Shown piece after piece: positions 11,716 through 48,916 of a stretch of 64,000 nt of DNA (the stretch's first letter is position 1; every line of letters starts with the position of its first letter). A program made the position numbers and the translations under genes. The stretch comes from a virus (Duplodnaviria > Heunggongvirae > Uroviricota > Caudoviricetes), in the IMG/VR virus record IMGVR_UViG_3300028534_000019, positions 31,091-95,090 of that record; one strand, given 5' to 3'. A model generated the notes under the pieces. It worked only from the letters and a program-made list of their open reading frames with translations, did no database searches and was not told the DNA's origin.

Positions 11716-11723
11716 TATAAATA
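11716..11723 (+). promoter_or_regulatory. T4-type late promoter box TATAAATA
   Basis: Exact TATAAATA 19 nt upstream of the nuclease-terminase operon ATG at 11742. Confidence 0.45.
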
Positions 11724-12099: not shown

Positions 12100-13872
12100 A
12101 TGGAAGGAATATTTAATAAATTAAAAGAACATAATAAAGATGTTGTACTTAGTGATGAAGAGAAAAATAAAGTTTTAAGTGTTATAGATATAGAGAAAAA
12201 TAAAGAGGGTTTATATGTAGATGCCTTTGGTATGCCTATATCGCATAATGGGTTAAGAGATTTAAAAAAAGAGAAAACACAAATAAATCTTTCAGAAACA
12301 TTAATAAATGAAATTAAAACATCATATTTAGATTATTATTATTTTAGAGAAAATTATTGTAAAATTGTTACTAAAAAAGGTATTAAAAGACCTGAGCCAA
12401 GACCATACCAAAAAAGGTTAGAAGATGATTTAGTAACAGGTGAAGATGTTTTAGCATTTTGGCCGAGACAATCAGGAAAATCTGTAACTATTTCAACTTA
12501 TCTATTATGGAAAGCAATTACAACACCTAATATTAATATTGGTATAGCGGCAAATGTTCAAAAATTAGCTATGGAAGTATTAGACAAAATAAAAAATATA
12601 TTTTTGGAGTTACCTATTTGGATGAAGCCGGGTATAAAGGTTTGGAATAAAGGTTCTATTGAATTTGAAAATGGTACAAGAATTTTAACCTCAGCAACTA
12701 ATGGTGATGCTTTTAGGGGGTTTACTATTAATATATTATATGTTGATGAGGTTGCTTTTATTAGACATAGTGTGTGGGAAGAATTTGCTGATTCTGTTTT
12801 CCCTGCTCAAGAAGCACTTATGGAAAAACAAACTATTATGTCAAGTACGGCTGGTGGGCTTAATCATTGGTATCATTTAGTAGAGGGTGCTAGAAAGGGT
12901 AAAAATGGTTATAGAATAGCTGAAGCAAGTTGGAAAGAAGTTCCTAGATGGAAAAAAGATGGTACTCTTAAAACACCTGATGAATTTAAGGCTGAAATAA
13001 TAGCTAAAAATGGAGAGATGTTTTTCCAACAAAATTTTGGTAACTCTTTTTTAGGTAGTTCTAAAACTTTAATAGATTCACAAGCATTAAAAAATATTGA
13101 ACCTATGGATGATGATGAAATTTTGTTTGATAATGTTTTTAATGGACTAAGAATTTTTAAAGAGCCAAAACCTAATCATAATTATATAGTTACTTGTGAC
13201 CCCAAAAAAGAGGGTTTGGATAGTGCTGGATTACAAGTTGTTGATGTTACAAATTTACCTTTTGAACAAGTAGCATCAGCACAATTACACGAGAGTTATT
13301 TAACAATTCCTGGTAAATTAAATGATTTAGGGTTGTATTATAATAAGGCTATGATAGTATGTGAAAATAATGTAGCTGAGTCTATACCTAGTACTGTATA
13401 TTATAATTATGAATATGAGGGTGAAGTCTTTATAGAAAAAGATAGTAAGGGTCGCCCTAAAAAGGAAATGGGCATTAGGACAACTACCAAAACAAAAAGA
13501 TTAGGTTTAACTCTATTAAAGAAATTTGTAGAGAATGGAAACCTAATAATAAATGATACAAAAACATTAGATGAATTATTTAACTTCATTGAATATAAAG
13601 ATGGTATATATAAAGCAGAAGAGGGTTATCACGATGACCTTGTTATGTCATTAATGCTTGTTTTTGCTCCATTTTTAGATTTTAAAAACTTTGATGATTT
13701 TAGAGGTTTTGTTGATTATCTTGATAAAAAAGAAAAACAACAAGAAGAGAATGATAAAGAGATGGAAGAATTTATGGATTTAGGTTTTAGTTCTGATGAT
13801 GATTTGGAAGATGACGGGCCGTTTACTAAGGATATTTGGGGAAATAGAGATATGGTTGGTGGCTTCATATAA
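12100..13872 (+). CDS. 17: Terminase large subunit (T4 gp17-like)
   Basis: Walker A FWPRQSGKSVT. WNKGSIEFENGTRILTSATNGDAFRGFTINILYVDEVAFI parallels the T4 gp17 block, and the C-terminal nuclease region has YHDDLVMSL. The ATG at 12100 (after AAAGG) is preferred over 12055. Confidence 0.9.
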   Translation: MEGIFNKLKEHNKDVVLSDEEKNKVLSVIDIEKNKEGLYVDAFGMPISHNGLRDLKKEKTQINLSETLINEIKTSYLDYYYFRENYCKIVTKKGIKRPEPRPYQKRLEDDLVTGEDVLAFWPRQSGKSVTISTYLLWKAITTPNINIGIAANVQKLAMEVLDKIKNIFLELPIWMKPGIKVWNKGSIEFENGTRILTSATNGDAFRGFTINILYVDEVAFIRHSVWEEFADSVFPAQEALMEKQTIMSSTAGGLNHWYHLVEGARKGKNGYRIAEASWKEVPRWKKDGTLKTPDEFKAEIIAKNGEMFFQQNFGNSFLGSSKTLIDSQALKNIEPMDDDEILFDNVFNGLRIFKEPKPNHNYIVTCDPKKEGLDSAGLQVVDVTNLPFEQVASAQLHESYLTIPGKLNDLGLYYNKAMIVCENNVAESIPSTVYYNYEYEGEVFIEKDSKGRPKKEMGIRTTTKTKRLGLTLLKKFVENGNLIINDTKTLDELFNFIEYKDGIYKAEEGYHDDLVMSLMLVFAPFLDFKNFDDFRGFVDYLDKKEKQQEENDKEMEEFMDLGFSSDDDLEDDGPFTKDIWGNRDMVGGFI

Positions 13873-13875
13873 AAA

Positions 13876-13897
13876 TTAAGTATTTTTACTGTATAAT
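13876..13897 (+). promoter_or_regulatory. Promoter candidate (TTAAGT-N10-TATAAT)
   Basis: AAAATTAAGTATTTTTACTGTATAAT, 29 nt upstream of the ATG at 13926. Confidence 0.55.
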
Positions 13898-13925
13898 AAA
13901 ATCTATTAAAAATAAAAGGTTATAT

Positions 13926-14552
13926 ATGAGAAAGAAATTTAATGAAGATAAGAACAAAACTTATGAGAGTAAAGAACACTCTTTACATAAAAAGAAGATT
14001 GTAAAAAATCAAGACTATACAAAATTTAGGTTTTTTATAGGAACTTTTGATAATCAAACACCTAAGTTTCATTTAATATTAAATGATTTATATGATTCTA
14101 ATGAAAAAGATGAATTAGAATTAAGAATTATGTCACCAGTTGGATTGGTTATTGAATGTCAGCAAGTTGTGAATATAATGAATAACAAATTTAATGGTAG
14201 AACAACAGCATATATTGAAAGCCACGCTAGTTCAGCAGGTGCTATTGTTTTTGCTAATGCTGATAAAAGAGTTATATATGAAAATTCAAGAATAATGTTT
14301 CACAACTATTCAGGTGGTTATGGTGGTAAATTTCAAGATATTAAAGATAGATTAGATTTTGATGAAAAACATATTATTTCTTTTTTGAGTGTTGCTAAAC
14401 AATTCTTAAATAAAAAAGAATGGAAACAAATGGTAAATGGAAAAAACTTTTGGTTTGATGCTTCTGATATGTTAAAAAGAAATATAGCAACTCATATCAT
14501 AGTAGATGGTAAAGAGATGACTAAGAAAGAATATAAAAAATATAAAAAATAA
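13926..14552 (+). CDS. ClpP-fold serine protease (S14-like)
   Basis: SHASSAGAIVF (catalytic Ser context), NSRIMFHNYSGG (His) and FWFDASDML (Asp region), in ClpP order. Carries an N-terminal basic extension of about 50 aa. Confidence 0.7.
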   Translation: MRKKFNEDKNKTYESKEHSLHKKKIVKNQDYTKFRFFIGTFDNQTPKFHLILNDLYDSNEKDELELRIMSPVGLVIECQQVVNIMNNKFNGRTTAYIESHASSAGAIVFANADKRVIYENSRIMFHNYSGGYGGKFQDIKDRLDFDEKHIISFLSVAKQFLNKKEWKQMVNGKNFWFDASDMLKRNIATHIIVDGKEMTKKEYKKYKK

Positions 14553-14574: not shown

Positions 14575-14582
14575 TATAAATA
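14575..14582 (+). promoter_or_regulatory. T4-type late promoter box TATAAATA
   Basis: Exact TATAAATA 25 nt upstream of the ATG at 14607. Confidence 0.4.
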
Positions 14583-14606
14583 TTATTAAAATTAAAGAGG
14601 TATAAA

Positions 14607-15344
14607 ATGAACCTTAATTTATATGACTCATCACACGATAGAGAATATGAACTTTTTAGAGATACAACAGAAGAATTAATTAATATGTATGGTGTACCTG
14701 TAAAATATCTTATAACAGAAAAAATTAATCAAAATGAAATATTTGGTGAATGGAGTCATTTAAAGATAGACAATCAAAAGGTACACCAATTTTTTGGTTT
14801 ACCATCAGCTAGTGATAATTGGGAAGGTGATAACTCTTTATTTTCAAATTTTGGGCTTCAAAATGTAGAAAGTATTAATATATTCATTCCTAGAAAAGTT
14901 ATGGAAGTGATACACCCTGAAATTGTTAATAGAGATGGTAAAGCAACAATAGAAAATTTACCTATTGGGAATTTGGTAGTTTTTGAAAGTAATAAAATAA
15001 TGGAAGTTACTGGTTTTGAATTAAGTTCAGCAGATTTTGGTAATAATAATGTATTTACTTCTGATAGACTGAAAAATGTTTTTAAACTTAAATTAAAATC
15101 TTATATACCAAATAGAGATGATTATTCTTCAGCAGATGATATAACAGATAGTAACAATTTTGATTATGGTGATTTTGGTAACTTAGATTCAATATTCAGA
15201 GATGAAGAAGAAGAAGTAAAAAATGTTACACACAAAGCCGAAGATGTAGTATTAAAAAATGAAACTATTTATCCTGCTGAGGTTAGAGAAAAACCAATAA
15301 GAGAAAAAACAAAAGAAGATAATCCTTTTGGGTATCTTGGTTAA
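14607..15344 (+). CDS. Hypothetical protein (possible virion protein, from the late-box context)
   Basis: 245-codon ORF with AAAGAGG RBS and a late-type box upstream. No motif is confidently recognised. Confidence 0.6.
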   Translation: MNLNLYDSSHDREYELFRDTTEELINMYGVPVKYLITEKINQNEIFGEWSHLKIDNQKVHQFFGLPSASDNWEGDNSLFSNFGLQNVESINIFIPRKVMEVIHPEIVNRDGKATIENLPIGNLVVFESNKIMEVTGFELSSADFGNNNVFTSDRLKNVFKLKLKSYIPNRDDYSSADDITDSNNFDYGDFGNLDSIFRDEEEEVKNVTHKAEDVVLKNETIYPAEVREKPIREKTKEDNPFGYLG

Positions 15345-15816: not shown

Positions 15817-15838
15817 TTAAGCATATAGTAGCTATAAT
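15817..15838 (+). promoter_or_regulatory. Promoter candidate (TTAAGC-N10-TATAAT)
   Basis: TTAAGCATATAGTAGCTATAAT. The -10 element and leader are shared with 32565-32605. Confidence 0.5.
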
Positions 15839-15870
15839 ACTACATATAAAACATAAAAGGATTAGAAATG
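15830..15870 (+). repeat. 41-bp -10/leader cassette (40/41 identical to 32565-32605)
   Basis: AGCTATAATACTACATATAAAACATAAAAGGATTAGAAATG versus ...GGATTAAAAATG. Confidence 0.85.
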
Positions 15871-16212
15871 GCAACAAGAAGTACAATTTGGATAGAAAAT
15901 GAAGATAAAAGTTTTGAAGGTATTTATGCTCATTGGGATGGATATTTATCACATAATGGTAGAATACTTTTAAATAACTATAATTCAGAAGAAAAAGCAA
16001 GAGAACTTATTGCTAAGGGTAATATTTCAGTTTTAGATGAAACTATTGACACTTGTAGATTTTATGATGAAGAGGGTTATAAATCAAGTTCTGATGATTT
16101 AACTGATTATCACGAAGAGTATCTATATCTTTTCAAAGATGGTAAATGGTTTGTATCAGAAGATGCTAAAAATTTTGTTGAATTAACAGAAAAACTTATA
16201 GGAGAAGAGTAA
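15868..16212 (+). CDS. Hypothetical protein
   Basis: 114-codon ORF following the promoter cassette. Confidence 0.6.
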   Translation: MATRSTIWIENEDKSFEGIYAHWDGYLSHNGRILLNNYNSEEKARELIAKGNISVLDETIDTCRFYDEEGYKSSSDDLTDYHEEYLYLFKDGKWFVSEDAKNFVELTEKLIGEE

Positions 16213-16592
16213 TGTTTTCAGATAAGTATGTAAAAATTTTAAAAGAGGATTGGGAAGTAATCAAAAAAGATTATAACTCAATGCTGAAAGAAAATGAAAA
16301 GTTAAAAAAAGAAAATGCTGAGTTACAGAAATATAAAGCACAAGATGATTTACTTTATAGTTATGAAAACACATTAGTTGATAAAGATATTCAGATAAAC
16401 TCTTTAAAGGAAGAAATTCATAATTTAAAATATAATTTACTTATATTAGAAGATAAACTAGATAGAAGTGCTATTATGGAAAAATTATATCTTGAAACTT
16501 TACATAAGGAAAGATTGAAAAGAAGTTGTTTTAAAGAATGTGATGAATATGAAACTGTAAATACAGAGAGTATTTTAGATAAAACTGTTTAA
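16212..16592 (+). CDS. Hypothetical coiled-coil protein
   Basis: Heptad-like K/E/L-rich sequence. The ATG overlaps the upstream stop. Confidence 0.55.
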   Translation: MFSDKYVKILKEDWEVIKKDYNSMLKENEKLKKENAELQKYKAQDDLLYSYENTLVDKDIQINSLKEEIHNLKYNLLILEDKLDRSAIMEKLYLETLHKERLKRSCFKECDEYETVNTESILDKTV

Positions 16593-16601
16593 AGGATTAA
16601 A

Positions 16602-17051
16602 ATGATATATTCAAATAATAAAAAAGTAAAACACGACTATGAAATAATTGAAACATTTGAGGCAGGTGTTGTTTTGAGCGGTCCGCAAGTAAAATCAATT
16701 AGAAAAGGTTCTTTAAGCCTTAAAGGTTCTTATGTTAGTCTTGATGATGGTGTTTTATCATTAAAACAATACTCACTTGCTAGACCTGATTATTTGGATG
16801 CTTTTAGTTCTTTTGATGATAAACCAATAAAATTTTTACTCAAAAAAAGAGAGATTAAAAAATTACAAAAAAAGATTCAAGAAAAAGGTTTAACATTATC
16901 TATAACAAAAGTTTATCAACCTGAAAATACTAGATTTATTAAGGCTGAGTTAGTTCTTGTGAGAGGTAAAAAACTATATGATAAAAGAGAAGATTTAAAA
17001 AAGAAAACACAAGAAATGGATATGAAAAAGGCTATAAAATATGATAGATAA
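16602..17051 (+). CDS. smpB: SmpB (tmRNA-binding protein)
   Basis: NNKKVKHDYEIIETFEAGVVLSGPQVKSIRKGSLSLKGSYV matches the conserved SmpB N-terminal block (NKKA.HDY.I...EAGI.L.G.EVKS.R). Size is 149 aa with a basic C-terminal tail. Confidence 0.9.
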   Translation: MIYSNNKKVKHDYEIIETFEAGVVLSGPQVKSIRKGSLSLKGSYVSLDDGVLSLKQYSLARPDYLDAFSSFDDKPIKFLLKKREIKKLQKKIQEKGLTLSITKVYQPENTRFIKAELVLVRGKKLYDKREDLKKKTQEMDMKKAIKYDR

Positions 17052-17250
17052 TCTAAAAAGTGCTGATGAAATATATTTAGTAGTACAGTTTGGAGCAAAA
17101 GATTTTAACAATAGAACACAAGAATTGATTGATGAAAATTATATTCCATTTAGTGATGTTGCTGTTCAAAGTTTTCACGATGAATTTTGCTTTTCACAAC
17201 AGTTTATAAAAAATCCAAAATACATAGAAGAAACAAAAAGGAAAATATAA
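17041..17250 (+). CDS. Hypothetical protein
   Basis: 69-codon ORF overlapping the smpB end by 11 nt. Confidence 0.45.
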   Translation: MIDNLKSADEIYLVVQFGAKDFNNRTQELIDENYIPFSDVAVQSFHDEFCFSQQFIKNPKYIEETKRKI

Positions 17251-18041
17251 TGTTAATAGTACCTGTTGGTTTGCCTGGTTCAGGAAAAACTGTTTTATCA
17301 AGAAAATTTAATACAGTTATAAATGCTGATGAATTGTTTAAGGATAATTATACATTAGATGATTTAATAAATTATATAAAAGAATATAATTATACAGTAA
17401 CAGATGTTTATTTGGATGGTTTATTTATTACAAGGAATTTAGTTAAGAAATTGATTGAAACTTTTGATTATTATATTAGATTAGTATATTTTAAACCTAA
17501 TATAGAAAATTGTATCTACAATGATTTATCAAGAAATAGAGAAAAAGATAGTGTTAATATAATTTATGGTTCTGATTTAAGTTTTATGAAAGAAAGTTAT
17601 TTTAGAAATAAAATAAGAGAAACAATGGAAGTATATAAGGCTGATTATGTAGAATATATAAAAGAAGAAAATAACTTTCAAAATTATATAGAAACACAAG
17701 AGTATGTCTTAGAAGGAAGTACATATGGTACTTGTTGGGATGAAGACGGCCCGTCTGAAACAACACCTGATGACCCATACCATTTTACTGATTTTACAGA
17801 ACTTGAAAAGATATTTAAAAAAATGAATATTCCTTATACAGAAGAAAATTATAATAAAATTGAAAGTGTTATAGAAGAAGAAGATAGAAGTGAGGGTGAT
17901 TATTATGGTGGTTATGCTTATAAAGAGGTTTATAGAGTTGAAGTTACATTATTAATAAAAGCAATACTAAAAGAGTTTTTTGGTATTGATAAAACAGATA
18001 TGGCATATATTAAAAAAGAATACCCTGAACTAATATTTTAA
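17250..18041 (+). CDS. P-loop kinase-like protein (polynucleotide-kinase-like N-terminus) with C-terminal YPELIF motif
   Basis: MLIVPVGLPGSGKT is a Walker A at the extreme N-terminus, as in T4 Pnk-type kinases. The ATG at 17250 overlaps the previous stop (TAATG). Ends ...IKKEYPELIF*. Confidence 0.55.
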   Translation: MLIVPVGLPGSGKTVLSRKFNTVINADELFKDNYTLDDLINYIKEYNYTVTDVYLDGLFITRNLVKKLIETFDYYIRLVYFKPNIENCIYNDLSRNREKDSVNIIYGSDLSFMKESYFRNKIRETMEVYKADYVEYIKEENNFQNYIETQEYVLEGSTYGTCWDEDGPSETTPDDPYHFTDFTELEKIFKKMNIPYTEENYNKIESVIEEEDRSEGDYYGGYAYKEVYRVEVTLLIKAILKEFFGIDKTDMAYIKKEYPELIF

Positions 18042-18056
18042 AAAAAAGGCTAAAAA

Positions 18057-18569
18057 ATGGTAGAAGAAAATAATTTTAGAGAAACAAAAACACATATTTA
18101 TTTTTGGGGTAGTATCTATTCTCAATGGTACACTTCAAAAAACCAATTCAAAGAAGATGGATTTATTTTTCAAAATGCTGAACAGTATATGATGATGAAA
18201 AAAGCAGAACTTTTTAAAGATTATGATGTATTAGAAAAAATGAAACAAACAAGTAATCCAAAGGTATTAAAAAAATTGGGTAGAGAAATTAAAGGTTTTG
18301 ATGAAGATATTTGGAATTTTAATAAAATGGATATTGTTGAAAGAGGGAATTTTTTAAAGTTCTCTCAAAATCCTAAGTTATTAGAAAAACTTATAGCACA
18401 CAAAAATAAACATATAGTAGAAGCATCACCTTATGATAAGATTTGGGGTATTGGGCTTCATTGGTCAGATGATAAGGTATTAAATGAAAGTACTTGGAAT
18501 GGTGAAAATCTTTTAGGTAAATGTATTATGTCAGCAAGAGATAAAATTTTAAATCCAAAATCTATATAA
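18057..18569 (+). CDS. NADAR (YbiA/DUF1768) family protein
   Basis: IYFWGSIYSQWY, FQNAEQYMMMKKAELF, GNFLKFSQNPKL and IVEASPYDKIWGIG are the family signatures as I recall them. Confidence 0.8.
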   Translation: MVEENNFRETKTHIYFWGSIYSQWYTSKNQFKEDGFIFQNAEQYMMMKKAELFKDYDVLEKMKQTSNPKVLKKLGREIKGFDEDIWNFNKMDIVERGNFLKFSQNPKLLEKLIAHKNKHIVEASPYDKIWGIGLHWSDDKVLNESTWNGENLLGKCIMSARDKILNPKSI

Positions 18570-18579
18570 TAAGAAAAAA

Positions 18580-18601
18580 TTAAATAAAAATATTATATAA
18601 T
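18580..18601 (+). promoter_or_regulatory. Promoter candidate (TTAAAT-N10-TATAAT) upstream of dnaK
   Basis: TTAAATAAAAATATTATATAAT, 38 nt upstream of the ATG at 18640. Confidence 0.4.
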
Positions 18602-18639
18602 TAAGAATTAAAACATTTAAAACACAAAGGAGATAATTT

Positions 18640-20490
18640 ATGGCAGTTATTGGTATAGATTTAGGAACGACAAATAGTGCTGTTTCAGTTTATGAAGTAG
18701 GGGAATTTAAAATTATTCCTAATGCTGAGGGTAAAAATACAACACCTAGTATTGTAGCATTTACAGATAAAGGGGATGTATTAGTAGGGGAATCAGCAAA
18801 AAGACAAGCAGTCACAAACCCTGAAAAAACTATTGAAGCAATTAAAAGAATTATGGGTATGCAATTTAATGAACCTAGATGTAAAGAGGCTCAAGAAAAA
18901 GTACAATATAAAATTGTAGATAAAAATGGTTTGGCCGCTGTTGATGTTGATGGTAAGATTTATACACCACAAGAAATTTCAGCTAAAATCCTTACAAAAC
19001 TAAAAGATGATGCAGAAGCATTTATTGGTAAAGAAGTTACAGATGCTGTAATTACAGTTCCAGCATACTTTAATGATGCTCAGAGAAAGGCGACACAAGA
19101 GGCAGGCGTTATTGCAGGGCTTAATGTACTAAGAATTATTAATGAACCTACTTCGGCCGCTCTTGCTTATGGTTTGGACAAAAAAGGTGAGGAAAATATT
19201 CTTGTTTATGATTTTGGTGGTGGTACTTTTGATGTATCTGTATTAGAAATTGGAGATGGTACTTTTGAAGTTCTTTCAACTGATGGTAATGCTTTCTTAG
19301 GTGGTAAAGACTTTGACCAAATTTTAGTTAATTATATTGCTGAATATTTTAAAGAGAAACAGGGTGTTGATTTAAGAAATGATAAAATGGCACTTCAAAG
19401 ATTATATGATGCTTCAGAAAATGCTAAAAAAGAGTTATCAAGTGTTGTAGAAACTGAAATTAACTTACCATTTATTACTATGACAGAAGCCGGCCCGCAG
19501 CATCTTGTTTTAAAAATTTCAAGAGGTAAATTTGAGGGGTTAGTACAAAATCTTGTAGATGAAACTATTGAACATATTACAACAGCATTACAAGACGCTG
19601 GTTTAAGTGTAGATGATATTAGTGAATTGATTATGGTTGGTGGCTCAACAAGAATACCTTTAGTACAAGAGGCAGTTTCAAAGTATTTTAAAGGTAAAAC
19701 TCTTAATAAATCTGTTAATCCTGATGAAGTTGTAGCCGCTGGTGCTTCAATTCAAGGTGGTGTATTAACAGGAGATGTAAAAGATGTTCTTCTTCTTGAT
19801 GTTACACCATTATCACTTGGTATTGAAACTATGGGTGGTATTGCTACTAAAATCATCCCAAAAGGTACAACTATTCCTGTTAAAAAATCAGAAATCTTTA
19901 GTACAGCAGTTGATAATCAACCAGCAGTTAGTATTGTAGTAGTACAAGGTGAAGCAAAATTAGCAGAAGATAATAAATCTTTAGGACAATTTAATCTTGA
20001 GGGTATAACACCAGCTAAAAAAGGTGTACCACAAATTGAAGTTAATTTTGATGTTGATTCTAATGGTGTTTTGAGTGTATCAGCTATTGATAAAGGAACA
20101 GGTAAAGAACAGAAAATAACAATTACAGGTTCGACAGGTTTAAGTGAAGAAGAAATTAGAAAGATGATTGATGATGCTGAAAAACAAAATCAAGAAAAGG
20201 CTGAAAAAATTAAAGCAATTGAAGCAAAAAATGAATTGGATGCTACTCTTTCAAGAATTAAAAACTTTAATGATGAAGAAAAAAATGAAGTGCTATCAGC
20301 TAAAATTTCTGATGTTGAAGAATATGTAAAAGAAGATAGAACAGCAGAAGAAATTAGAAAAATTAGAGATGAACTTGAAGAAGTTTATTTAAAAGCATTT
20401 GAAGAGAAATCAAAAAGAAATGAAGGTGCTGAGGTAAAAGAAAGCACTGAAAATAATGATGATGTTATTGATGCTGAAATTGAAGAATAA
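18640..20490 (+). CDS. dnaK: Hsp70 chaperone DnaK (canonical bacterial type)
   Basis: [69 protein letters not shown], and an acidic tail [10 protein letters not shown]. Confidence 0.95.
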
Positions 20491-20501
20491 AAGAGGAAAA
20501 A

Positions 20502-21305
20502 TTGAAAAAATTATATAAAATTCTTGAAATTGAAGAAACTTCTACAACAGTAGAAATAAAAAAAGCATATAGAAAATTAGCTAAAAAATACCACCCTGAT
20601 GTTTGTAAAGAAGAGGGTGGTGAAGATAAGTTTAAAGAAATTAATAGAGCATATGAAGTTCTAAGCAATCCACAAGAAAAACAAAAGTATGATAGATTTG
20701 GTGATGAAATGTATGAAAAAATGGGGTCAGGTGGTGGAAGACCTAATCCAAATGCTGATGAGTTTGCAGAAGCAATGGCATCATTTTTCAACCAAAAGGG
20801 AAATCCCCGACAAGGTAATCCTTTTGGTATGGGTGGTAATCCTTTTATTCATACAACAATTCAAGCATATATTTCGATAGAAGATTTATTTAAAGGTACT
20901 TCTATACAATTACAAGATGGTACTAAAGTAAAAATACCACCTAGAACAATACCGGGTAGTAGGGTAAGAGTTAAAGGCAAAGGTATGTCAGATGGTAAAA
21001 ATACAGGAGATTTATTTATTATCATAACACCAAAAAATAATGATAAAGAATTTGTTGAGAATGATACTATTATAAAGATTATCAAAATTGATTTAGTTAG
21101 TATGATTTTTGGAAATGAAATAAAATATAATCATTATGGTAAAGATTTAATTGTTACTGTTCCAAAAAATACAAAGCCCGGTGACTTTGTACAAATTCCC
21201 AATCAGGGCTTAGGTACTCAGGGTTCATTAATTTTACATTTAGATTTAGAATTACCAAAAGCAGAAGATTTAGATGAAGAAAAAGTAAAAGAATTATTTA
21301 ATTAA
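20502..21305 (+). CDS. J-domain co-chaperone (DnaJ/CbpA-like, no zinc-finger domain)
   Basis: TTG start after AAGAGG. J domain is YKILEIEETSTTVEIKKAYRKLAKKYHPDV with HPD, followed by a G/F-rich linker and a DnaJ C-terminal beta domain. No CxxCxGxG repeats. Confidence 0.85.
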   Translation: MKKLYKILEIEETSTTVEIKKAYRKLAKKYHPDVCKEEGGEDKFKEINRAYEVLSNPQEKQKYDRFGDEMYEKMGSGGGRPNPNADEFAEAMASFFNQKGNPRQGNPFGMGGNPFIHTTIQAYISIEDLFKGTSIQLQDGTKVKIPPRTIPGSRVRVKGKGMSDGKNTGDLFIIITPKNNDKEFVENDTIIKIIKIDLVSMIFGNEIKYNHYGKDLIVTVPKNTKPGDFVQIPNQGLGTQGSLILHLDLELPKAEDLDEEKVKELFN

Positions 21306-33464: not shown

Positions 33465-34577
33465 ATGAAAATTACAGAGATTAAACCTATTTTACAGTTT
33501 TCTAAAGATGCTGATGATGCTGTAATCATTGAGGGTAAACACGGTATTGGTAAATCAGAAATAGTTAAACAATATTGTTCGGAAAATGGTTATTTTTATA
33601 CTGTTTTATTTTTAAGTCATCAAGAAGTTGGTGATTTGATTGGTATGCCTTTTGAAAAAAATGGTATTCAATATTGGTCTAAACCATCTTGGTTAGTAAG
33701 AATGGAAGAAGCATCAGCAAGAGGGGAACATAATGTTTTACTCTTAGATGAGTTAAACCGAGCCCAAACTGATGTATTACAAAGTGCTTTACAACTTGTT
33801 TTAGAAAGACAAATTCACGAGCATTTCTTACCTACTACTGATGGTGTAAGAAGTCAAGTAATTGCTTGTATTAACCCTGATGATGATTTATATCAAGTAA
33901 TTACACTTGACCCAGCACTAAAAGATAGATTTTTACATTTAAAAACAAGTGAAGATTTACAAGGATGGGTTAAATGGGGTGGTGAAAAAGGAGTACCTGA
34001 TGTTGTTATTCATTACTTGCTTGAAAATGAAAATGATTTTCATAGTACAAATGAAGATGGTGAGGGTGCTACACCAAGAAGTTGGTATAAATTAAGTCAA
34101 TTCTTGAAAATATTTGAAGATAAAGAAGTTGAAGAATTTCAACTTTGGGAGATTATTAAAGGTAAAGTAGGTTCAAGTATCGGTAGCAAATTCCTTAACT
34201 TTTATAATACTCATAGTACATTTATTGATGTTACAAAAATTAAAAAGTTTTTAAATAAATATAAAAGAGATATTTCTGATTTACCTGAAATTGGTGCTGA
34301 ATTAGCTAGTTATATTAAAGGTCTTGAACAAGTAACTAAAGTAGAACAAGTTAATAAACTATATCACGACAGTATTGAAAAAATTAAAGATACTAAAGTT
34401 ACTATGGATGATGAAGATATTTTCACTATTTTTGCTATGCTTCACGCTTTTGAAATAGAAGTAACAACATCAGTTATGAAGCAATGGAAAAATGAAAGTG
34501 TGAGTGATTTTATGGATTTTGTTAAAAAAGATAATAAAGAACTCATTACATTAATAACAAGAAGATTAAAAACATAA
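33465..34577 (+). CDS. AAA+ ATPase (MoxR / AAA_5-like)
   Basis: Walker A IIEGKHGIGKSE, Walker B plus sensor LLLDELNRAQTDVLQSALQLVLER, and ACINPDD...LDPALKDRF. Confidence 0.8.
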   Translation: MKITEIKPILQFSKDADDAVIIEGKHGIGKSEIVKQYCSENGYFYTVLFLSHQEVGDLIGMPFEKNGIQYWSKPSWLVRMEEASARGEHNVLLLDELNRAQTDVLQSALQLVLERQIHEHFLPTTDGVRSQVIACINPDDDLYQVITLDPALKDRFLHLKTSEDLQGWVKWGGEKGVPDVVIHYLLENENDFHSTNEDGEGATPRSWYKLSQFLKIFEDKEVEEFQLWEIIKGKVGSSIGSKFLNFYNTHSTFIDVTKIKKFLNKYKRDISDLPEIGAELASYIKGLEQVTKVEQVNKLYHDSIEKIKDTKVTMDDEDIFTIFAMLHAFEIEVTTSVMKQWKNESVSDFMDFVKKDNKELITLITRRLKT

Positions 34578-34592
34578 AAGAGGTATTAAAAA

Positions 34593-34802
34593 ATGTATGC
34601 TTTAATAGGTTATAATGATGAGTATTATTACATTCAAATTTTTTCAGAAACTGATGTTGTGTATGGTTATATAATATATAACTTTAGTGGGGATAAAAGT
34701 TTAGTAGTTGATAATTTCCCAATTAGTTCAGTATTAAAAAGGTTTGAAACATTATATACTATTGAAGAAATACAAAATTTATACCCTGAATTAAAGTTCT
34801 AA
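34593..34802 (+). CDS. Hypothetical protein with C-terminal YPELKF motif
   Basis: Ends ...IEEIQNLYPELKF*. Confidence 0.5.
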   Translation: MYALIGYNDEYYYIQIFSETDVVYGYIIYNFSGDKSLVVDNFPISSVLKRFETLYTIEEIQNLYPELKF

Positions 34803-34814
34803 GAAAGGTTTTAT

Positions 34815-35183
34815 ATGGTAAAATTTCATAAAGATTATGATTTTAAAGGTGCTGATTTAGAAATCTTAAAAAAATTTCATAAAGATAATAATATTTCAAG
34901 AGTTGTATTAGATATAGAACTTAAAAAAGATAAAATTATGTTTTATTGGATTGAATATTCTAATTTTAGATATTTGTATGTTGATGATTTAAAAAGAAGT
35001 AGAGATATTAATATTAGCATATTCAAAATTAATGATATTATTTCTATAACAAATAGAGATTTTAACACACAAATATATTTTAAAGATGATATGTTTTATA
35101 TACCAAATAATAAAAATACTGATGTATTAATTGATGAATTTATCGAAGGTGATACATCAGTGAAAATTTTAAGAAAGATTTAA
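34815..35183 (+). CDS. Hypothetical protein
   Basis: 122-codon ORF. Confidence 0.5.
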   Translation: MVKFHKDYDFKGADLEILKKFHKDNNISRVVLDIELKKDKIMFYWIEYSNFRYLYVDDLKRSRDINISIFKINDIISITNRDFNTQIYFKDDMFYIPNNKNTDVLIDEFIEGDTSVKILRKI

Positions 35184-35201
35184 TATTTTTTAGTGTATAA
35201 T
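35180..35201 (+). promoter_or_regulatory. Promoter candidate (TTAATA-N10-TATAAT)
   Basis: TTAATATTTTTTAGTGTATAAT, 19 nt upstream of the ATG at 35220. Confidence 0.4.
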
Positions 35202-35219
35202 GTCATATAAAGGATTAAA

Positions 35220-44579: not shown

Positions 44580-44794
44580 TGACAAATATTCAAAAAATTA
44601 AATTTGATGCTAAATTTAGTGTTTCATATATGAATGGAAAATATGTTATTTCAGGTTTTAATCATACTTATTCTTTACATATAAAAGATAGATGTGATGA
44701 ATTAAATTATTTCATTGAAGATTATGAATTATGGAATTTAAGAGAAAAAGAATGGGAAGACCTTGTAAATACAATTAAGAAAGAGGGATTTTAA
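44579..44794 (+). CDS. Hypothetical protein
   Basis: The ATG at 44579 overlaps the methyltransferase stop (TAATG) and is preferred to the GTG at 44570. Confidence 0.45.
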   Translation: MTNIQKIKFDAKFSVSYMNGKYVISGFNHTYSLHIKDRCDELNYFIEDYELWNLREKEWEDLVNTIKKEGF

Positions 44795-45411
44795 ATCTCT
44801 CCTGATTGTATTTTACTTAATAAACTAGCTGTATCGCCAATAAAATTATTCTGAATATTAACAGTTTTTTCATCATTTTGTTTTTCTAATTCATAAGCAT
44901 TTAAAAATTTCTTAACTTTAAGTTGTGTTTCAGCAACAGTAGAATAACTATCCATCAATAACTTCATACTTGTAACATTACCTTTTTTAAGTTCAGCATA
45001 TGCCATTAAAACACTACCTGAAACCTCTTCAGAGTGTGATACAGCTAAATCCTTACCTAACTTAGATAAAATCTCTTTCGTCGTCTGTATATCTTCTCTT
45101 AGTGCTTGTTTAACTATATCAAAATCAGTTAATAATTCATCACTCTTTACAATACTTGCTAATGTATCACTATCATTTAAAACAGGAACTTGTTTTATTT
45201 TCTCATCTATTTCTTGTTTTCTTTTTTTAAGATTATCTTCAAGACCATCAGCCTCTAATTCAAAAGCGTCTAACAAACCTAAAAATTTATTTGCTTCTTC
45301 TAATTCTTTAGAAACCTTTTCATTTACATCTTCTATAATTTCTATTTCATCAGTATTATCAGTTGATTTATTTTCTGTAAAATCTATATTATTTTCTTCT
45401 ATATTAGACAT
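44791..45411 (-). CDS. Hypothetical acidic protein (last gene of the minus-strand tail operon)
   Basis: 206-codon ORF downstream of the gp15-like gene. Convergent with the plus-strand genes. Confidence 0.6.
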   Translation of the reverse strand: MSNIEENNIDFTENKSTDNTDEIEIIEDVNEKVSKELEEANKFLGLLDAFELEADGLEDNLKKRKQEIDEKIKQVPVLNDSDTLASIVKSDELLTDFDIVKQALREDIQTTKEILSKLGKDLAVSHSEEVSGSVLMAYAELKKGNVTSMKLLMDSYSTVAETQLKVKKFLNAYELEKQNDEKTVNIQNNFIGDTASLLSKIQSGEI

Positions 45412-45434: not shown

Positions 45435-46223
45435 TTATTCATTTGGATGTGTTATAGTTGTTTTAGCATTATCTATGTTATAATCATCTTCATCTACTTG
45501 TTTTGAATTAATAAAACCTGATAATTCCTCTATCTCATATACTTCACTTTTGTAATTTATTTCAGTTGTAACAGCAGTAGTATAAATTTCAACCTCTTTA
45601 ATAATGTGTGCTTCTTTTATAGGTAAGTATAAATTACCCTTAACAGTTATCGGTACTGAAATTTCAACAAGATATATTTCATCATCATTTGGTTCAGGTA
45701 ATTCAATATCAAAATCACCTAATTGTACTTGTATAGATGTAGGTTCTTCTTGTATATCTAATTCATTAATTTTTAATGTGTAATCAGGTCTAAATAATGG
45801 TGCTATCTGTTCAATGATTATAGTAGCATCAGAAAATGTTTTTGTAGCAATATGTAAAGTAAATTCAAAATCATAAGCAACAGAATTTTTATGAAATAAT
45901 CTTGTAATATCTTCTTTACTTAAATTATCTTTTGATGTTCTGTTTACAATAGAATTTTTATTTGTATTTCTATTTAATGCTTTATTTAAGCCATTAAATT
46001 CTAAAGCCATTCTTGGTAATACATTAACATTACCATTATTAATATTTTCTATATCATAATCACTCAACATAAAAGCAATATTTCTATTCCCAAATTTTAT
46101 AGGTACTTTTGTATCTGAAATTCTTTTACCTGTATTATCAAATCTTGGTACACTAATATCATTAAATAAATCTATCAAAGCAATAGTATAATTTTTAGTT
46201 GAGTTGTGGTAAAAGTAGTTCAT
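45435..46223 (-). CDS. 15: Tail sheath stabiliser / tail completion protein (T4 gp15-like)
   Basis: MNYFYHNSTKNYTIALIDLFNDISVPRF...KVPIKFGNRN...VLPRMALEF parallels T4 gp15 MFGYFYNSSFRRYATLMGDLFSNIQIKR...RVPITYASKE...ILPRINLHL, from memory. Confidence 0.7.
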   Translation of the reverse strand: MNYFYHNSTKNYTIALIDLFNDISVPRFDNTGKRISDTKVPIKFGNRNIAFMLSDYDIENINNGNVNVLPRMALEFNGLNKALNRNTNKNSIVNRTSKDNLSKEDITRLFHKNSVAYDFEFTLHIATKTFSDATIIIEQIAPLFRPDYTLKINELDIQEEPTSIQVQLGDFDIELPEPNDDEIYLVEISVPITVKGNLYLPIKEAHIIKEVEIYTTAVTTEINYKSEVYEIEELSGFINSKQVDEDDYNIDNAKTTITHPNE

Positions 46224-46289: not shown

Positions 46290-46814
46290 TTACATTTTAA
46301 TCCAGTGAGTAAATGCAAAATCAACAGTAAACTCAGTTACCATATCATTACTTTCATCAGCCATATCAATAGAACTGATATTAGTCGGCCAAAGGTTTCT
46401 AAATTGATAAGTAAGTTTTACACTATTATCTCTTGTATCTAATTGTTGAATTTGTGCTGTTTCAGTCATATAAGAAGCATTAGTAGTAACTTTTCTTTTA
46501 TGATTTTCCATATCATCAATAAATACCAACCAATCATCAAATAATTTTCTTAATTCGTGGTCTTGTGTGTTGTAAAATGTTAAAGACCAAGTATTTTCAT
46601 AAGCCGCATCACCTGCAATTATAAGTTTTCTACCTTGTGTCCAAACCTCAATTTGCCCAATAGATTTAGCTGGTATCGGCCCGCCCTTACAAAGAGTATC
46701 TATCTTTTTATCATCTTTTGGTCCGACAGGAGCCGCCAACATAACTCTATATTTATTTGCTCTTGCACCTAAACCAAGAGTACTTTTTAATTCTTGTACT
46801 TTACTAGAAGCCAT
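46290..46814 (-). CDS. 19: Tail tube protein (T4 gp19-like), paralogue 1
   Basis: GARANKYRV, FDDWLVF and NLWPTNISSIDMADESNDMVTEFTVDFAFTHW parallel T4 gp19 ...GLWPTNVGELQLDWDSNNEIQTFEVTLALDYWE. Confidence 0.85.
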   Translation of the reverse strand: MASSKVQELKSTLGLGARANKYRVMLAAPVGPKDDKKIDTLCKGGPIPAKSIGQIEVWTQGRKLIIAGDAAYENTWSLTFYNTQDHELRKLFDDWLVFIDDMENHKRKVTTNASYMTETAQIQQLDTRDNSVKLTYQFRNLWPTNISSIDMADESNDMVTEFTVDFAFTHWIKM

Positions 46815-46864
46815 AACTTCCTCCTTTTTTTAATCTTAATACAAAATTTGTACTAATTCTTATT

Positions 46865-46872
46865 TATTTATA
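46865..46872 (-). promoter_or_regulatory. T4-type late promoter box TATAAATA (minus strand)
   Basis: The plus strand reads TATTTATA, 51 nt upstream of the tube paralogue 1 ATG. AAAGGAGG RBS. Confidence 0.4.
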
Positions 46873-46886
46873 TATGGTATTTTTTA

Positions 46887-47399
46887 TCAATCCCAATGTG
46901 AATAATTAAATGTAACAGTAAACTCTAACAACCCTTCTGTATCATCACTATAAGTAGATTCAGATAATGCTTTAGGATATAAATCATATATTGTATATGT
47001 AGCCATTGGTGAGTTATCTTTTGTGCTTAATTGTTGTAAAACAGCATCAGTCATATAACTTGGTGCTGATGAAGCACTTCTATTATTTGTATTAAAATCA
47101 TCTATAAAATTCATCCAAGCTAAAAATGCTTTTCTTAATGTATGCTGTTCTGTATCAACAAATGTTAAATCCCAAGTTCCTGTAAAAAGTGTTTCACCAG
47201 CGATAGTTAATTTTTTACCTTGTACATATACTTCTACATCAGCAAATTCTTTACCAGGAATATTAGCACCTTTAACTAATGTATTAACTATATTATTACC
47301 CGGCCCGCCACCTTTTGAATTAAGAATTAGTTTATATCTATTTGACCTAGCACCTATACCAAGTGTATTTTTTAGATTTTGAATTGTACTATTTGCCAT
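46887..47399 (-). CDS. 19: Tail tube protein (gp19-like), paralogue 2
   Basis: Clearly alignable to paralogue 1 (MANSTIQNLKNTLGIGARSNRYKL..., ...DLYPKALSESTYSDDTEGLLEFTVTFNYSHWD). Confidence 0.85.
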   Translation of the reverse strand: MANSTIQNLKNTLGIGARSNRYKLILNSKGGGPGNNIVNTLVKGANIPGKEFADVEVYVQGKKLTIAGETLFTGTWDLTFVDTEQHTLRKAFLAWMNFIDDFNTNNRSASSAPSYMTDAVLQQLSTKDNSPMATYTIYDLYPKALSESTYSDDTEGLLEFTVTFNYSHWD

Positions 47400-48654: not shown

Positions 48655-48819
48655 TGGTAGAGTCATCTTTACTAAGTATATACCAATTTTACTCTAATAT
48701 GAAATTTTTTGGAAATTATTCTATTCCTGAGGTTGATGAAATGTTGCCTTTTGAAAGAGATATTTTTTACTCTTTATTAGTTAAACTTAAAGAAGAACAA
48801 AATAAAGTTGGTATGTAAA
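48655..48819 (+). CDS. 54-aa hypothetical protein (below the ORF-track cutoff; in frame with the upstream gene)
   Basis: MVESSLLSIYQFYSNMKFFGNYSIPEVDEMLPFERDIFYSLLVKLKEEQNKVGM*. The ATG directly follows the TAA of the previous gene, in the same frame. Confidence 0.4.
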
Positions 48820-48822
48820 AAT

Positions 48823-48844
48823 TAAGTATTTTTTAGATATAATA
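48823..48844 (+). promoter_or_regulatory. Promoter candidate (TTAAGT-N10-TATAAT)
   Basis: AAAATTAAGTATTTTTTAGATATAAT. Confidence 0.5.
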
Positions 48845-48916
48845 TATTTAATTTAAAGAATAAAGAACCATTATGTCATTAAAGACTCAATGATAAATAT
48901 AAACAAAAGGAAAATT

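What the first reader, a model, noticed from the sequence alone, without database searches (positions are those of the whole stretch)
13876..14552. ClpP-fold protease under an early-type promoter, not embedded in a head-morphogenesis cluster
The 13926-14552 product keeps the ClpP Ser/His/Asp contexts (SHASSAGAIVF, RIMFHNYSGG, FDASD). Phage ClpP-like proteins are usually prohead proteases encoded between the portal and capsid genes.

Here no portal, scaffold or capsid gene is nearby. T4-like phages normally use the unrelated gp21 protease. The gene is preceded by the TTAAGT-N10-TATAAT word rather than a TATAAATA late box. One possibility is a free proteolytic chamber working with the phage tmRNA tag, the SspB-like protein or the chaperones.
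Basis: inference. Interest (0 to 1): 0.5.

Follow-up and report, generated by a model that had tools for sequence, protein, structure and literature searches.

The report
Orphan ClpP-like protease of a T4-like phage
This phage gene encodes a real ClpP-fold serine protease that is very probably not the capsid-maturation enzyme, because its relatives carry a separate gp21-type enzyme; it belongs to an already annotated class of "orphan" phage Clp proteases whose job is still unknown.

Summary
The ORF 13926-14552 is real. It encodes a 208-aa ClpP-fold protein with an invariant Ser103 and His126. The promoter-like word TTAAGT-N10-TATAAT upstream is also real and is enriched in the window.

- The gene lies between the large terminase and a gp14-like neck gene, both of which have late TATAAATA boxes.
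- "FDASD" is not the triad aspartate. The ClpP Asp171 position is Asn174 here, and E, N or D in homologues.

- Five related contigs, including the closest large one (272 kb), carry both this gene and a separate gp21-type (S77/S80) protease.
- In Campylobacter phages, gp21 is found in all 54 records and the ClpP-like gene in only 15.
- The gene's neighbours differ between relatives and are replication, nucleotide-metabolism or chaperone genes.

I could not find a gp21-type gene on the window phage's own DNA, so that point is unproven for this genome.

The proposed docking to host ClpX or ClpA is unlikely, because the pocket tyrosines are replaced by Glu/Arg and the N-terminus differs. A tie to the phage tmRNA is untested, and homologues occur in phages without SmpB.

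Verdict: a new member of a known, uncharacterised kind, of modest interest.

The parts
13876..13897 (+). Promoter-like word TTAAGTATTTTTACTGTATAAT (TTAAGT-N10-TATAAT), the non-late class. The predicted transcript start is about 13904.
   Evidence: Exact match: 23 matches at up to 1 mismatch against 6.1 expected. The same word precedes the tmRNA gene (39378), the SmpB operon (15817), and the NUDIX (21313), ParM-like (26613) and other non-structural genes at about -50 from the start codon; DnaK (18580) has a TTAAAT variant at -60. That it acts as a promoter is inferred, not shown.
13915..13919 (+). Ribosome-binding site AAAGG, 6 nt before the ATG.
   Evidence: Read from the sequence. The same AAAGGA-type site precedes most genes of the window.
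13926..14552 (+). Coding sequence of a 208-aa ClpP-fold serine peptidase (orphan phage Clp protease).
14232..14234 (+). Codon of Ser103, the predicted nucleophile (equivalent to ClpP Ser97).
   Evidence: Invariant in 35 of 35 homologues and aligned to ClpP Ser97.
14301..14303 (+). Codon of His126 (equivalent to ClpP His122).
   Evidence: Invariant in 35 of 35 homologues and aligned to ClpP His122.
14445..14447 (+). Codon of Asn174, at the position of ClpP Asp171.
   Evidence: Profile alignment to P. aeruginosa ClpP2 and MAFFT alignment. The family has E 24, N 7 and D 4 at this position.
12100..13872 (+). Context: the T4-type large terminase gene, in a late unit that starts at the TATAAATA box at 11716-11723 before the SNase-like gene. 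No terminator separates it from the protease gene.
   Evidence: Pfam Terminase_6N 5e-14; PHROG large terminase 2.3e-48; late box; no terminator.
14575..15344 (+). Context: a late box TATAAATA (14575-14582) and the gp14-like neck/head-closure gene (14607-15344).
   Evidence: Pfam T4_neck-protein 27.1 bits against a cut-off of 25; PHROG head closure Hc2 4.2e-23.

Best explanation
The gene encodes an accessory, non-structural ClpP-fold serine peptidase of a large, AT-rich T4-like phage that is distantly related to the Campylobacter Firehammervirus phages. It is not the enzyme that matures the capsid; in this lineage a separate gp21-type (S77/S80) protease does that.

It is probably transcribed from its own non-late promoter, with the phage's replication, chaperone and trans-translation genes. 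It probably works inside the infected cell as a ring-shaped, self-compartmentalised peptidase that cuts host or phage proteins or peptides.

It probably does not dock ClpX or ClpA itself. It either works without an ATPase or works as an accessory ring beside a canonical ClpP.

Shown: the fold, the conserved Ser/His, the promoter word, co-occurrence with a gp21-type protease in relatives, and variable non-structural gene contexts. Inferred: expression timing, oligomeric state, independence from ClpX/A, and substrates.
For: - Fold and catalytic Ser/His.
- Separate prohead protease in relatives. The 272,602-bp contig has the ClpP-like gene (64% identity) and a gp21-like gene that scores 33.8 bits on Pfam S80. 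The 167-kb, 81-kb and 11-kb contigs hold both genes within 6 kb, and the 167-kb copy scores 40.9 bits on Pfam S77. The 281-kb contig has both, judged by matching contig length.
- CP220 and CP20 have both proteins.
- gp21 is in 54 Campylobacter phage records, but the ClpP-like gene is in only the 15 Firehammervirus-type records.
- Gene contexts: topoisomerase/helicase in CP220; clamp loader/PTPS; NrdA/NrdB; GroEL/clamp loader.
- The nearest other family, PHROG 1827 (E = 1e-26, against 4e-16 or weaker for the other PHROG families labelled head maturation protease), sits in early or metabolic regions of T5-like and Otagovirus phages.
- Promoter class.
- Pocket residues Tyr60, Tyr62 and Phe82 are replaced by Glu, Arg and Asn.
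Against: - No gp21-type gene was found on DNA that certainly belongs to this phage (the window plus about 15 kb). None of the homologues found sits on the 100,859-bp parent contig.
- At three positions where relatives have gp21 (before the terminase, after gp15, after the gp24-like gene), this phage has other genes.
- The gene is flanked by packaging and neck genes, and late read-through from the terminase unit is possible.
- Its best PHROG (26628) and its best NCBIfam models carry head-maturation labels, although its NCBIfam scores fall below the cut-offs.
- BF23's orphan Clp protease was detected in virions at low abundance.
- Nothing here measures expression, oligomeric state or activity.
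Confidence: 0.6

Rival explanations
1. It is a head-maturation (prohead) protease of the ClpP-related type. It is either the only one in this phage, having replaced gp21, or a second one. It would be made late by read-through from the terminase unit and packaged into proheads.
For: - It lies between the terminase and neck genes with no terminator.
- Its best PHROG is labelled head maturation protease.
- NCBIfam 'head maturation protease, ClpP-related' scores better than cellular ClpP models, at 51.8 against 28.4 bits.
- No S77/S80 gene lies in the window or its flanks, including three positions syntenic with relatives' gp21.
- The orphan Clp protease of BF23 was detected in virions.
Against: - The NCBIfam score is far below the cut-off (51.8 against 120).
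- The PHROG label most likely rests on label transfer, since it covers the Campylobacter phage proteins, and those phages have gp21.
- All five larger relatives keep a gp21-type protease.
- The gene is absent from Fletchervirus phages, which keep the T4-type gp21 prohead protease.
- Its position is not conserved and is mostly among replication or chaperone genes.
- It has its own non-late promoter word and no late box.
- The authors of the IBB_35 virion mass-spectrometry study saw no sign that the ClpP protease acts on the identified structural proteins.
Confidence: 0.12
2. This is the reader's idea: a canonical ATP-dependent proteolytic chamber that docks host ClpX or ClpA (or a phage AAA+) and degrades proteins tagged by the phage's own tmRNA.
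For: - It has the ClpP fold with Ser/His and a full-length handle helix.
- It has the same promoter word as the tmRNA gene and the SmpB operon, and DnaK/DnaJ have a variant of it.
- One relative (L009) has this gene close to an AAA+ gene and a canonical ClpP gene.
Against: - The aromatic residues of the docking pocket are replaced by Glu, Arg/Lys and Asn in 31-32 of 35 members.
- The N-terminal axial-loop/helix A region is not ClpP-like in the model.
- Scores against curated ClpP models are about 26-28 bits, against cut-offs of 249-309.
- Homologues occur in Firehammervirus, T5-like and Otagovirus phages, and none of the 59 phage records with an SmpB gene is a Campylobacter or Providencia (T5-like) phage.
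- No tmRNA lies near the gene in ten related loci.
- No ClpX-type gene was seen among the window ORFs examined.
Confidence: 0.08
3. It is an accessory ClpP isoform that is weak or inactive alone. It stacks on a canonical ClpP heptamer (host or phage) to form a mixed tetradecamer that changes what the host Clp machine cuts, as Listeria ClpP1 and Pseudomonas ClpP2 do.
For: - The best solved-structure sequence match is P. aeruginosa ClpP2, E = 3e-11.
- The third triad position is Asn here and variable in the family. From memory, Listeria ClpP1 also has Asn there and depends on ClpP2.
- The docking pocket is lost while the handle helix is kept.
- A relative carries this gene beside a canonical ClpP gene.
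Against: - It is only 16-20% identical to cellular ClpP, so a shared ring-ring interface is doubtful.
- The preference for ClpP2 over other ClpPs is marginal (3e-11 against about 1e-9).
- Most family members have Glu or Asp at the third position.
- No canonical ClpP gene lies in the window.
- No multimer model or experiment is available.
Confidence: 0.15

Closest known systems
Firehammervirus 'ClpP protease' (Campylobacter phage CP220 CPT_0160 / APL47_gp168, CP21_196, IBB_35 gene 4-9; PHROG 26628)
   Same: It is the closest cultured homologue, at 37-40% identity over 86% of the protein and PHROG E = 1.6e-37. The host is likewise a T4-like phage with a separate gp21. The gene lies outside any head module, between the topoisomerase and helicase genes.
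   Different: The Campylobacter phage protein is 295 aa and has an extra C-terminal tail of about 90 residues rich in lysine, which is absent here. Its motif around the serine differs (GYSCGA against ASSAGA). Its gene neighbours differ. RefSeq labels it a head maturation protease, which is probably label transfer.
Orphan 'Clp protease / ATP-dependent protease' of T5-like (Demerecviridae), Otagovirus and other virulent phages (PHROG 1827; BF23 ORF45)
   Same: It is the second-best family, at E = 1e-26 and 23-26% identity, and gives the top matches among viral structure models. The gene sits in early or metabolic regions. The phages have a separate prohead protease, and the function is stated to be unknown.
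   Different: It is distant in sequence and found in a different phage type. BF23's protein was detected in virions at low abundance; nothing is known about that here.
Cellular ClpP (MEROPS S14), including the accessory isoforms P. aeruginosa ClpP2 and Listeria ClpP1
   Same: It has the same fold (TM 0.62-0.67). Ser and His are in the same motifs, and the long handle helix is present.
   Different: Identity is 16-20%. It scores far below the curated ClpP cut-offs. Asp171 is replaced by Asn (Glu/Asn/Asp in the family). The docking-pocket tyrosines are replaced by Glu/Arg. The N-terminal region is different.
ClpP-related head maturation proteases of tailed phages (NCBIfam NF045542; PHROGs 94, 1684, 2976, 133)
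   Same: It belongs to the same superfamily, with detectable profile matches at E = 1e-14 to 4e-16.
   Different: It scores below the family cut-off (51.8 against 120). It is not next to portal, scaffold or capsid genes. It has no scaffold-like extension. Relatives have a different dedicated prohead protease.
T4 gp21 (S77) / phiKZ gp175 (S80) prohead proteases
   Same: There is nothing in common beyond both being phage serine proteases.
   Different: The fold and sequence are unrelated, and profile searches give no match. This family supplies the prohead protease in the relatives.

Membership tests
ClpP (MEROPS S14; Pfam PF00574; TIGR00493) | ClpP/crotonase-type fold with the handle helix | tested here: met
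   The model has pLDDT 88.7 and a long helix at 136-158. In Foldseek against the PDB, all top 50 matches are ClpP, with probability 1.0 and TM 0.62-0.67.
ClpP (MEROPS S14; Pfam PF00574; TIGR00493) | Score above the curated family thresholds | tested here: inconclusive
   Pfam: 34.8 bits against a cut-off of 20.2, but covering only residues 55-143. NCBIfam ClpP models: 18-28 bits against cut-offs of 228-361.
ClpP (MEROPS S14; Pfam PF00574; TIGR00493) | Ser-His-Asp catalytic triad | tested here: inconclusive
   Ser103 and His126 are invariant in 35 of 35 members. The Asp171 position is Asn174 here, and E 24, N 7, D 4 in the family. The model coordinates could not be inspected.
ClpP (MEROPS S14; Pfam PF00574; TIGR00493) | Hydrophobic pocket for the IGF/LGF loops of ClpX or ClpA (Tyr60, Tyr62, Phe82 and others) | tested here: not met
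   The equivalents are Glu65 (E in 31 of 35), Arg67 (R or K in 32 of 35) and Asn87 (N in 32 of 35). The E. coli numbering comes from a sequence recalled from memory, which is consistent with Ser97, His122 and Asp171.
ClpP (MEROPS S14; Pfam PF00574; TIGR00493) | N-terminal axial loops plus helix A | tested here: not met
   The model has beta-strands at 18-27 and 29-38 in place of helix A. Profile matches to ClpP begin at residue 30-50.
ClpP (MEROPS S14; Pfam PF00574; TIGR00493) | Double heptameric ring | not testable with these tools
   Only monomer prediction was available.
ClpP-related phage head maturation protease (NCBIfam NF045542) | Score above the family cut-off | tested here: not met
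   51.8 bits against a cut-off of 120. A canonical phage ClpP (L009) scores higher on this model (82 bits), so the match is not specific.
ClpP-related phage head maturation protease (NCBIfam NF045542) | Encoded in the head module next to portal, scaffold or major capsid genes | tested here: not met
   The flanks are the terminase and neck genes, and no portal, scaffold or capsid gene lies in the window. In relatives the neighbours are replication, nucleotide-metabolism or chaperone genes.
ClpP-related phage head maturation protease (NCBIfam NF045542) | It is the genome's prohead protease, with no other one present | tested here: inconclusive
   Relatives have a gp21-type S77/S80 protease as well. 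For this phage itself, no gp21-type gene lies on the DNA at hand, and the 3-kb gp21 contig from the same assembly cannot be assigned.
ClpP-related phage head maturation protease (NCBIfam NF045542) | Late expression and presence in proheads | not testable with these tools
   A non-late promoter word is present and there is no late box, but read-through from the late terminase unit is possible.
Orphan phage Clp protease (PHROG 26628 / 1827) | Profile match to the family | tested here: met
   E = 1.6e-37 and 1e-26, each covering almost the whole protein.
Orphan phage Clp protease (PHROG 26628 / 1827) | Encoded away from the head genes in a phage that has another prohead protease | tested here: inconclusive
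   Met for CP220, for the metagenomic relatives and for BF23. In PSTCR5 and VCM only the position away from head genes was seen. In the window the gene is next to the terminase and neck genes, and the second protease was not located.
T4 gp21 / phiKZ gp175 prohead protease (S77/S80) | Homology to the family | tested here: not met
   Profiles built from 120 gp21 homologues and from the divergent lineage forms give no match to this ORF or anywhere in the window.
SppA / NfeD (S49-type, Ser-Lys) | Family profile match and a Ser-Lys dyad | tested here: not met
   NfeD1b_N scores 19.2 bits against a cut-off of 40. An invariant His sits at the ClpP His position.

The most novel reading that the evidence does not exclude
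The protein is a phage-made accessory ClpP ring with an Asn at the third triad position and no ATPase-docking pocket. It would co-assemble with the host's ClpP and redirect the host Clp machine as part of a phage proteostasis set. That set would include the phage tmRNA, whose tag has an unusual end (...TVLSA), together with SmpB, DnaK/DnaJ and a second Hsp70. Phage-tagged or host proteins would then be degraded on the phage's terms.
Probability: 0.08. Interest if true: 0.7.

Novelty: new member of a known kind. Interest (0 to 1): 0.3.

Why it matters
Orphan ClpP-like genes recur in large virulent phages: Firehammervirus, T5-like phages, Otagovirus, jumbo phages, and here a large uncultured T4-like lineage with relatives' contigs of about 270-280 kb. 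Databases label them either "ATP-dependent protease" or "head maturation protease", and nobody has shown what they do.

This case adds a clear in-silico argument that the head-maturation label is wrong for the T4-like members, because they keep a separate gp21-type protease. It also suggests that the protein cannot dock ClpX or ClpA in the usual way.

If the gene's link to the phage's chaperone and trans-translation genes were real, it would point to phage-controlled protein turnover during infection. None of that is shown here.

Tried and rejected
- Exact look-ups of the protein in the assembly index found nothing. A 38-mer from the gene is not in IMG/VR. The parent contig could therefore not be read directly.
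- Only about 15 kb outside the window was recovered, through ENA contigs.
- The first scan for gp21 in IMG/VR used Campylobacter-type gp21 patterns and returned none of the ClpP-bearing contigs. This briefly suggested that the lineage lacks gp21. It was a false negative, because the lineage's gp21 is only 21-26% identical to that clade. It was found by running profiles over the flanks of the ClpP-like loci.
A two-motif DNA pattern had too little sensitivity, matching 10 of 29 low-GC loci, and was dropped.
- I tested whether the 206-aa (44791-45411) and 245-aa (L006:4350-5087) proteins, which lie at gp21-syntenic positions, are divergent gp21. They have no Pfam match, only one weak match to a PHROG family of unknown function, and no match to the gp21 profiles.
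- Assigning the 3-kb gp21 contig of assembly ERZ27262685 to the window phage was rejected as unsafe, because that assembly holds a second ClpP-like gene of the lineage.
- Literature searches for a demonstrated function of phage-encoded ClpP found only statements that it is unknown.
- The SppA/NfeD and S77/S80 assignments were rejected.
Full report
**What is at the coordinates**

The window is 26% G+C. An ATG ORF at 13926-14552 encodes 208 aa and is preceded by an AAAGG ribosome-binding site.
- The protein matches Pfam CLP_protease above the gathering score: 34.8 bits against 20.2, E = 1.9e-8, residues 55-143.
- An AlphaFold model built on 35 homologues is confident, with pLDDT 88.7 and pTM 0.85.
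- The model's best matches among solved structures are all ClpP, with probability 1.0, TM 0.62-0.67 and 16-20% identity.
- The 35 metagenomic homologues are 40-100% identical to the window protein. All keep Ser103 (ASSAGA) and His126 (RIMFHN), which align with ClpP Ser97 and His122.

The gene and its ClpP ancestry are therefore real.

**Corrections to the observation**

First, the third triad residue is misplaced.
- In the profile alignment to P. aeruginosa ClpP2 and in a MAFFT alignment with E. coli ClpP, the Asp171 position is Asn174 in this protein.
- In the family that position is Glu in 24, Asn in 7 and Asp in 4 members.

Second, the gene is not far from morphogenesis genes.
- The upstream neighbour is the T4-type large terminase (Pfam Terminase_6N 5e-14; PHROG 2.3e-48).
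- The downstream neighbour is a gp14-like neck/head-closure protein (PHROG 4.2e-23).
- It is true that no portal, scaffold or major capsid gene is in the window. The structural block at 44.8-62 kb holds tail-tube, gp15-like, baseplate and tape-measure genes.

**The promoter word**

TTAAGT-N10-TATAAT at 13876-13897 is an exact copy of a word that, with at most one mismatch, occurs 23 times against 6.1 expected. None of 100 shuffles reached 23.
- Its copies lie mostly on the coding strand about 50 nt before start codons. They precede the SmpB operon and the NUDIX, ParM-like and MazG-like genes, and a TTAAAT variant precedes DnaK/DnaJ.
- One exact copy lies 53 nt before the tmRNA gene, which argues that the word is a real promoter.
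- TATAAATA is not enriched overall: 20 copies against 27 expected.
- TATAAATA does sit 18-58 nt before the SNase/terminase unit, the neck gene, a tail-tube gene, a baseplate-hub gene, the tape-measure gene and the tube-cap gene.

The protease gene therefore carries the non-late word between two late-box units.

The spacing of the word does not fit a -35/-10 promoter. It resembles a T4 'middle' promoter more, with an activator box about 12 bp from the -10 element. That comparison is from memory, so 'early' is not established. No terminator separates the gene from the terminase gene, so late read-through is possible.

**Who the relatives are**

The closest cultured homologues are the 'ClpP protease' genes of the Campylobacter Firehammervirus phages (CP220, CPt10, CP21, IBB_35 and others), at 38-40% identity.
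- In CP220 the gene lies between a topoisomerase II subunit and a helicase.
- CP220 also has a gp21 homologue, CPT_0193 (PMC2853527). The CP20 copy matches Pfam Peptidase_S77 at 8e-21.
- In the phage collection, gp21 is found in 54 Campylobacter phage records. The ClpP-like gene is in exactly the 15 Firehammervirus-type records and in none of the 39 Fletchervirus-type records.
- In the IBB_35 virion proteome, gp21 was identified. The authors saw no sign that the ClpP protease acts on the identified structural proteins (PMC3322345).

**Does the window's own lineage have gp21?**

No S77/S80 gene lies in the window or in the roughly 15 kb of flanking DNA that I recovered. A first IMG/VR scan with Campylobacter-type gp21 found none of the seven ClpP-bearing viral contigs.

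Running the gp21 profile over the flanks of the ClpP-like loci then showed a divergent gp21 about 5-7 kb downstream of the ClpP-like gene in three contigs (167 kb, 81 kb and 11 kb). The 167-kb copy matches Pfam S77 at 40.9 bits and S80 at 38.3 bits. It keeps the GELDHP histidine and the serine of GFSLR.

Using that form as the query had two results:
- The 272,602-bp contig IMGVR_UViG_3300026484_000007 carries the closest IMG/VR ClpP-like gene (64% identity) near 183 kb. It has a gp21-like gene near 6.5 kb that scores 33.8 bits on Pfam S80 against a cut-off of 23.4.
- The 281-kb contig also has both genes, judged by matching contig length.

The best non-self homologue of the 272-kb gp21 (73% identity) is on a 3-kb contig of ENA assembly ERZ27262685. 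That is the assembly holding contigs identical to the window. The same assembly also holds a second ClpP-like gene, 75% identical to the window's. The 3-kb contig therefore cannot be assigned to this phage, and none of the gp21-like proteins found sits on the 100,859-bp parent contig.

In short, the lineage has a dedicated prohead protease, but this is not yet shown for this genome.

**Gene context in relatives**

| Source | Neighbours of the ClpP-like gene |
|---|---|
| Window | Large terminase / gp14-like neck |
| CP220 | Topoisomerase II subunit / helicase |
| 272-kb contig | Clamp loader / PTPS |
| 167-kb contig | NrdA (with intein) / NrdB |
| L009, L010 | GroEL upstream |
| L009 | Followed by clamp loader, a PAN/FtsH-like AAA+ gene and a canonical ClpP (Pfam 167 bits) |

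The position is not conserved, and the neighbours are mostly replication, nucleotide-metabolism or chaperone genes.

**Family placement**

- Its own PHROG (26628, E = 1.6e-37) is labelled 'head maturation protease'. It probably consists of the Campylobacter phage proteins, which RefSeq names the same way.
- The next family is PHROG 1827, 'ATP-dependent protease' (E = 1e-26). The other PHROG families labelled head maturation protease score 4e-16 or weaker.
- PHROG 1827 genes in the T5-like phage PSTCR5 and in Otagovirus VCM lie among tRNA, PhoH, dCMP deaminase, ligase and phosphatase genes.
[quoted passage not shown] Both were seen in virions, the latter at low abundance (PMC10644984).
- NCBIfam places the protein below every cut-off: 51.8 against 120 for the ClpP-related head maturation protease, and 18-28 against 228-361 for cellular ClpP.

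**Can it work with ClpX or ClpA?**

The residues that line the IGF-loop pocket of ClpP are replaced across the family: Tyr60 by Glu in 31 of 35 members, Tyr62 by Arg or Lys in 32 of 35, and Phe82 by Asn in 32 of 35. The first roughly 40 residues are predicted as a beta-hairpin and not as the axial loop plus helix A. The long handle helix is kept.

This argues against direct docking of ClpX or ClpA. It leaves open either an ATP-independent ring or an accessory ring beside a canonical ClpP. The Asn at the third triad position, the marginally best match to P. aeruginosa ClpP2 and the paired genes in L009 hint at the accessory-ring possibility. The evidence for it is thin.

**Link to trans-translation**

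The gene shares its promoter word with the tmRNA gene and the SmpB operon (and a variant of it with DnaK), and it lies 2-6 kb from SmpB, DnaK and DnaJ. However, none of the 59 phage records with an SmpB homologue is a Campylobacter or Providencia (T5-like) phage. No tmRNA lies in ten related loci. The family does not depend on a phage tmRNA. A functional link in this particular phage is neither supported nor excluded.

**Verdict**

This is an accessory, non-structural ClpP-fold peptidase of an already annotated but functionally unexplained class.
- The claim that it is not the main prohead protease deserves about 0.85 confidence.
- The fuller mechanism stated as the best explanation deserves about 0.6.
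- It is a new, divergent member of a known kind, and interest is modest (0.3).

Noticed in passing
window 39378-39772: The tmRNA gene (39452-39772, tag ANNTDYTGNTVLSA) is preceded by an exact TTAAGT-N10-TATAAT word at 39378-39399. The tag starts like tags of Helicobacter and Campylobacter relatives (from memory) but ends in ...TVLSA and not in the usual ...AA. A second Hsp70-like ORF (39844-41706, identified by eye) follows directly.
   Followed up: partly
window 15817-21305: A set of proteostasis and trans-translation genes lies 2-6 kb downstream of the protease gene: SmpB (16602-17051) in an operon behind the promoter word at 15817, then DnaK (18640-20490) and DnaJ (20502-21305) behind a TTAAAT variant at 18580. 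These were identified by eye from the translations, not by profile search. SmpB has 59 homologues in the phage collection, none in Campylobacter or Providencia (T5-like) phages.
   Followed up: partly
L009 7716-14990 (IMGVR_UViG_3300026512_000032): A related phage contig carries, in order, GroEL, a 145-aa ORF, the ClpP-like gene, the gp44 clamp loader, a 385-aa AAA+ (PAN/FtsH/CDC48-like), a canonical ClpP (Pfam 167 bits) and a DNA polymerase. It thus has two ClpP-family genes and an AAA+ that overlaps the start of the canonical ClpP gene.
   Followed up: partly
L014 5897-12093 (IMGVR_UViG_3300026484_000236): Here the ClpP-like gene sits between the two ribonucleotide reductase subunits. The large subunit carries an intein with a LAGLIDADG domain.
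   Followed up: no
L001 11923-12810 (CP220 APL47_gp168) and other RefSeq Firehammervirus records: RefSeq names the ClpP-like protein 'head maturation protease', although the same genomes encode a gp21 S77 homologue that is also annotated as the prohead protease. This is probably label transfer through PHROG 26628.
   Followed up: partly
window 47965-49618: There are two paralogous baseplate-hub genes (PHROG 150). The first has a late TATAAATA box and the second has the non-late word at 48822. This is the one clear case of a structural-type gene behind that word.
   Followed up: no
window 46290-47399: Two tail-tube (gp19) paralogues lie in tandem on the minus strand, followed by a gp15-like gene (45435-46223) and an acidic 206-aa protein (44791-45411). 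That protein occupies the place where several relatives have gp21 and has no Pfam match.
   Followed up: partly
L006 3165-4073 (about 6 kb upstream of the window start, ENA k141_205395): A short (302-aa) gp23-fold protein (Pfam Gp23; PHROG major head protein 2.6e-26), possibly a gp24-like vertex protein, stands apart from any capsid gene cluster.
   Followed up: no
L122 and L127 (ENA assembly ERZ27262685): The metagenome that contains this phage also contains a second ClpP-like gene of the lineage (75% identical) and a 3-kb contig with a gp21-like S80 gene. At least two related phages therefore coexist in the sample.
   Followed up: partly
window 33465-36473: A MoxR-like AAA+ gene (33465-34577) lies near a 417-aa ORF (35220-36473) that looks like a metallopeptidase/VWA-type protein. 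This is judged by eye only. No ClpX-type unfoldase was seen among the window ORFs examined.
   Followed up: no
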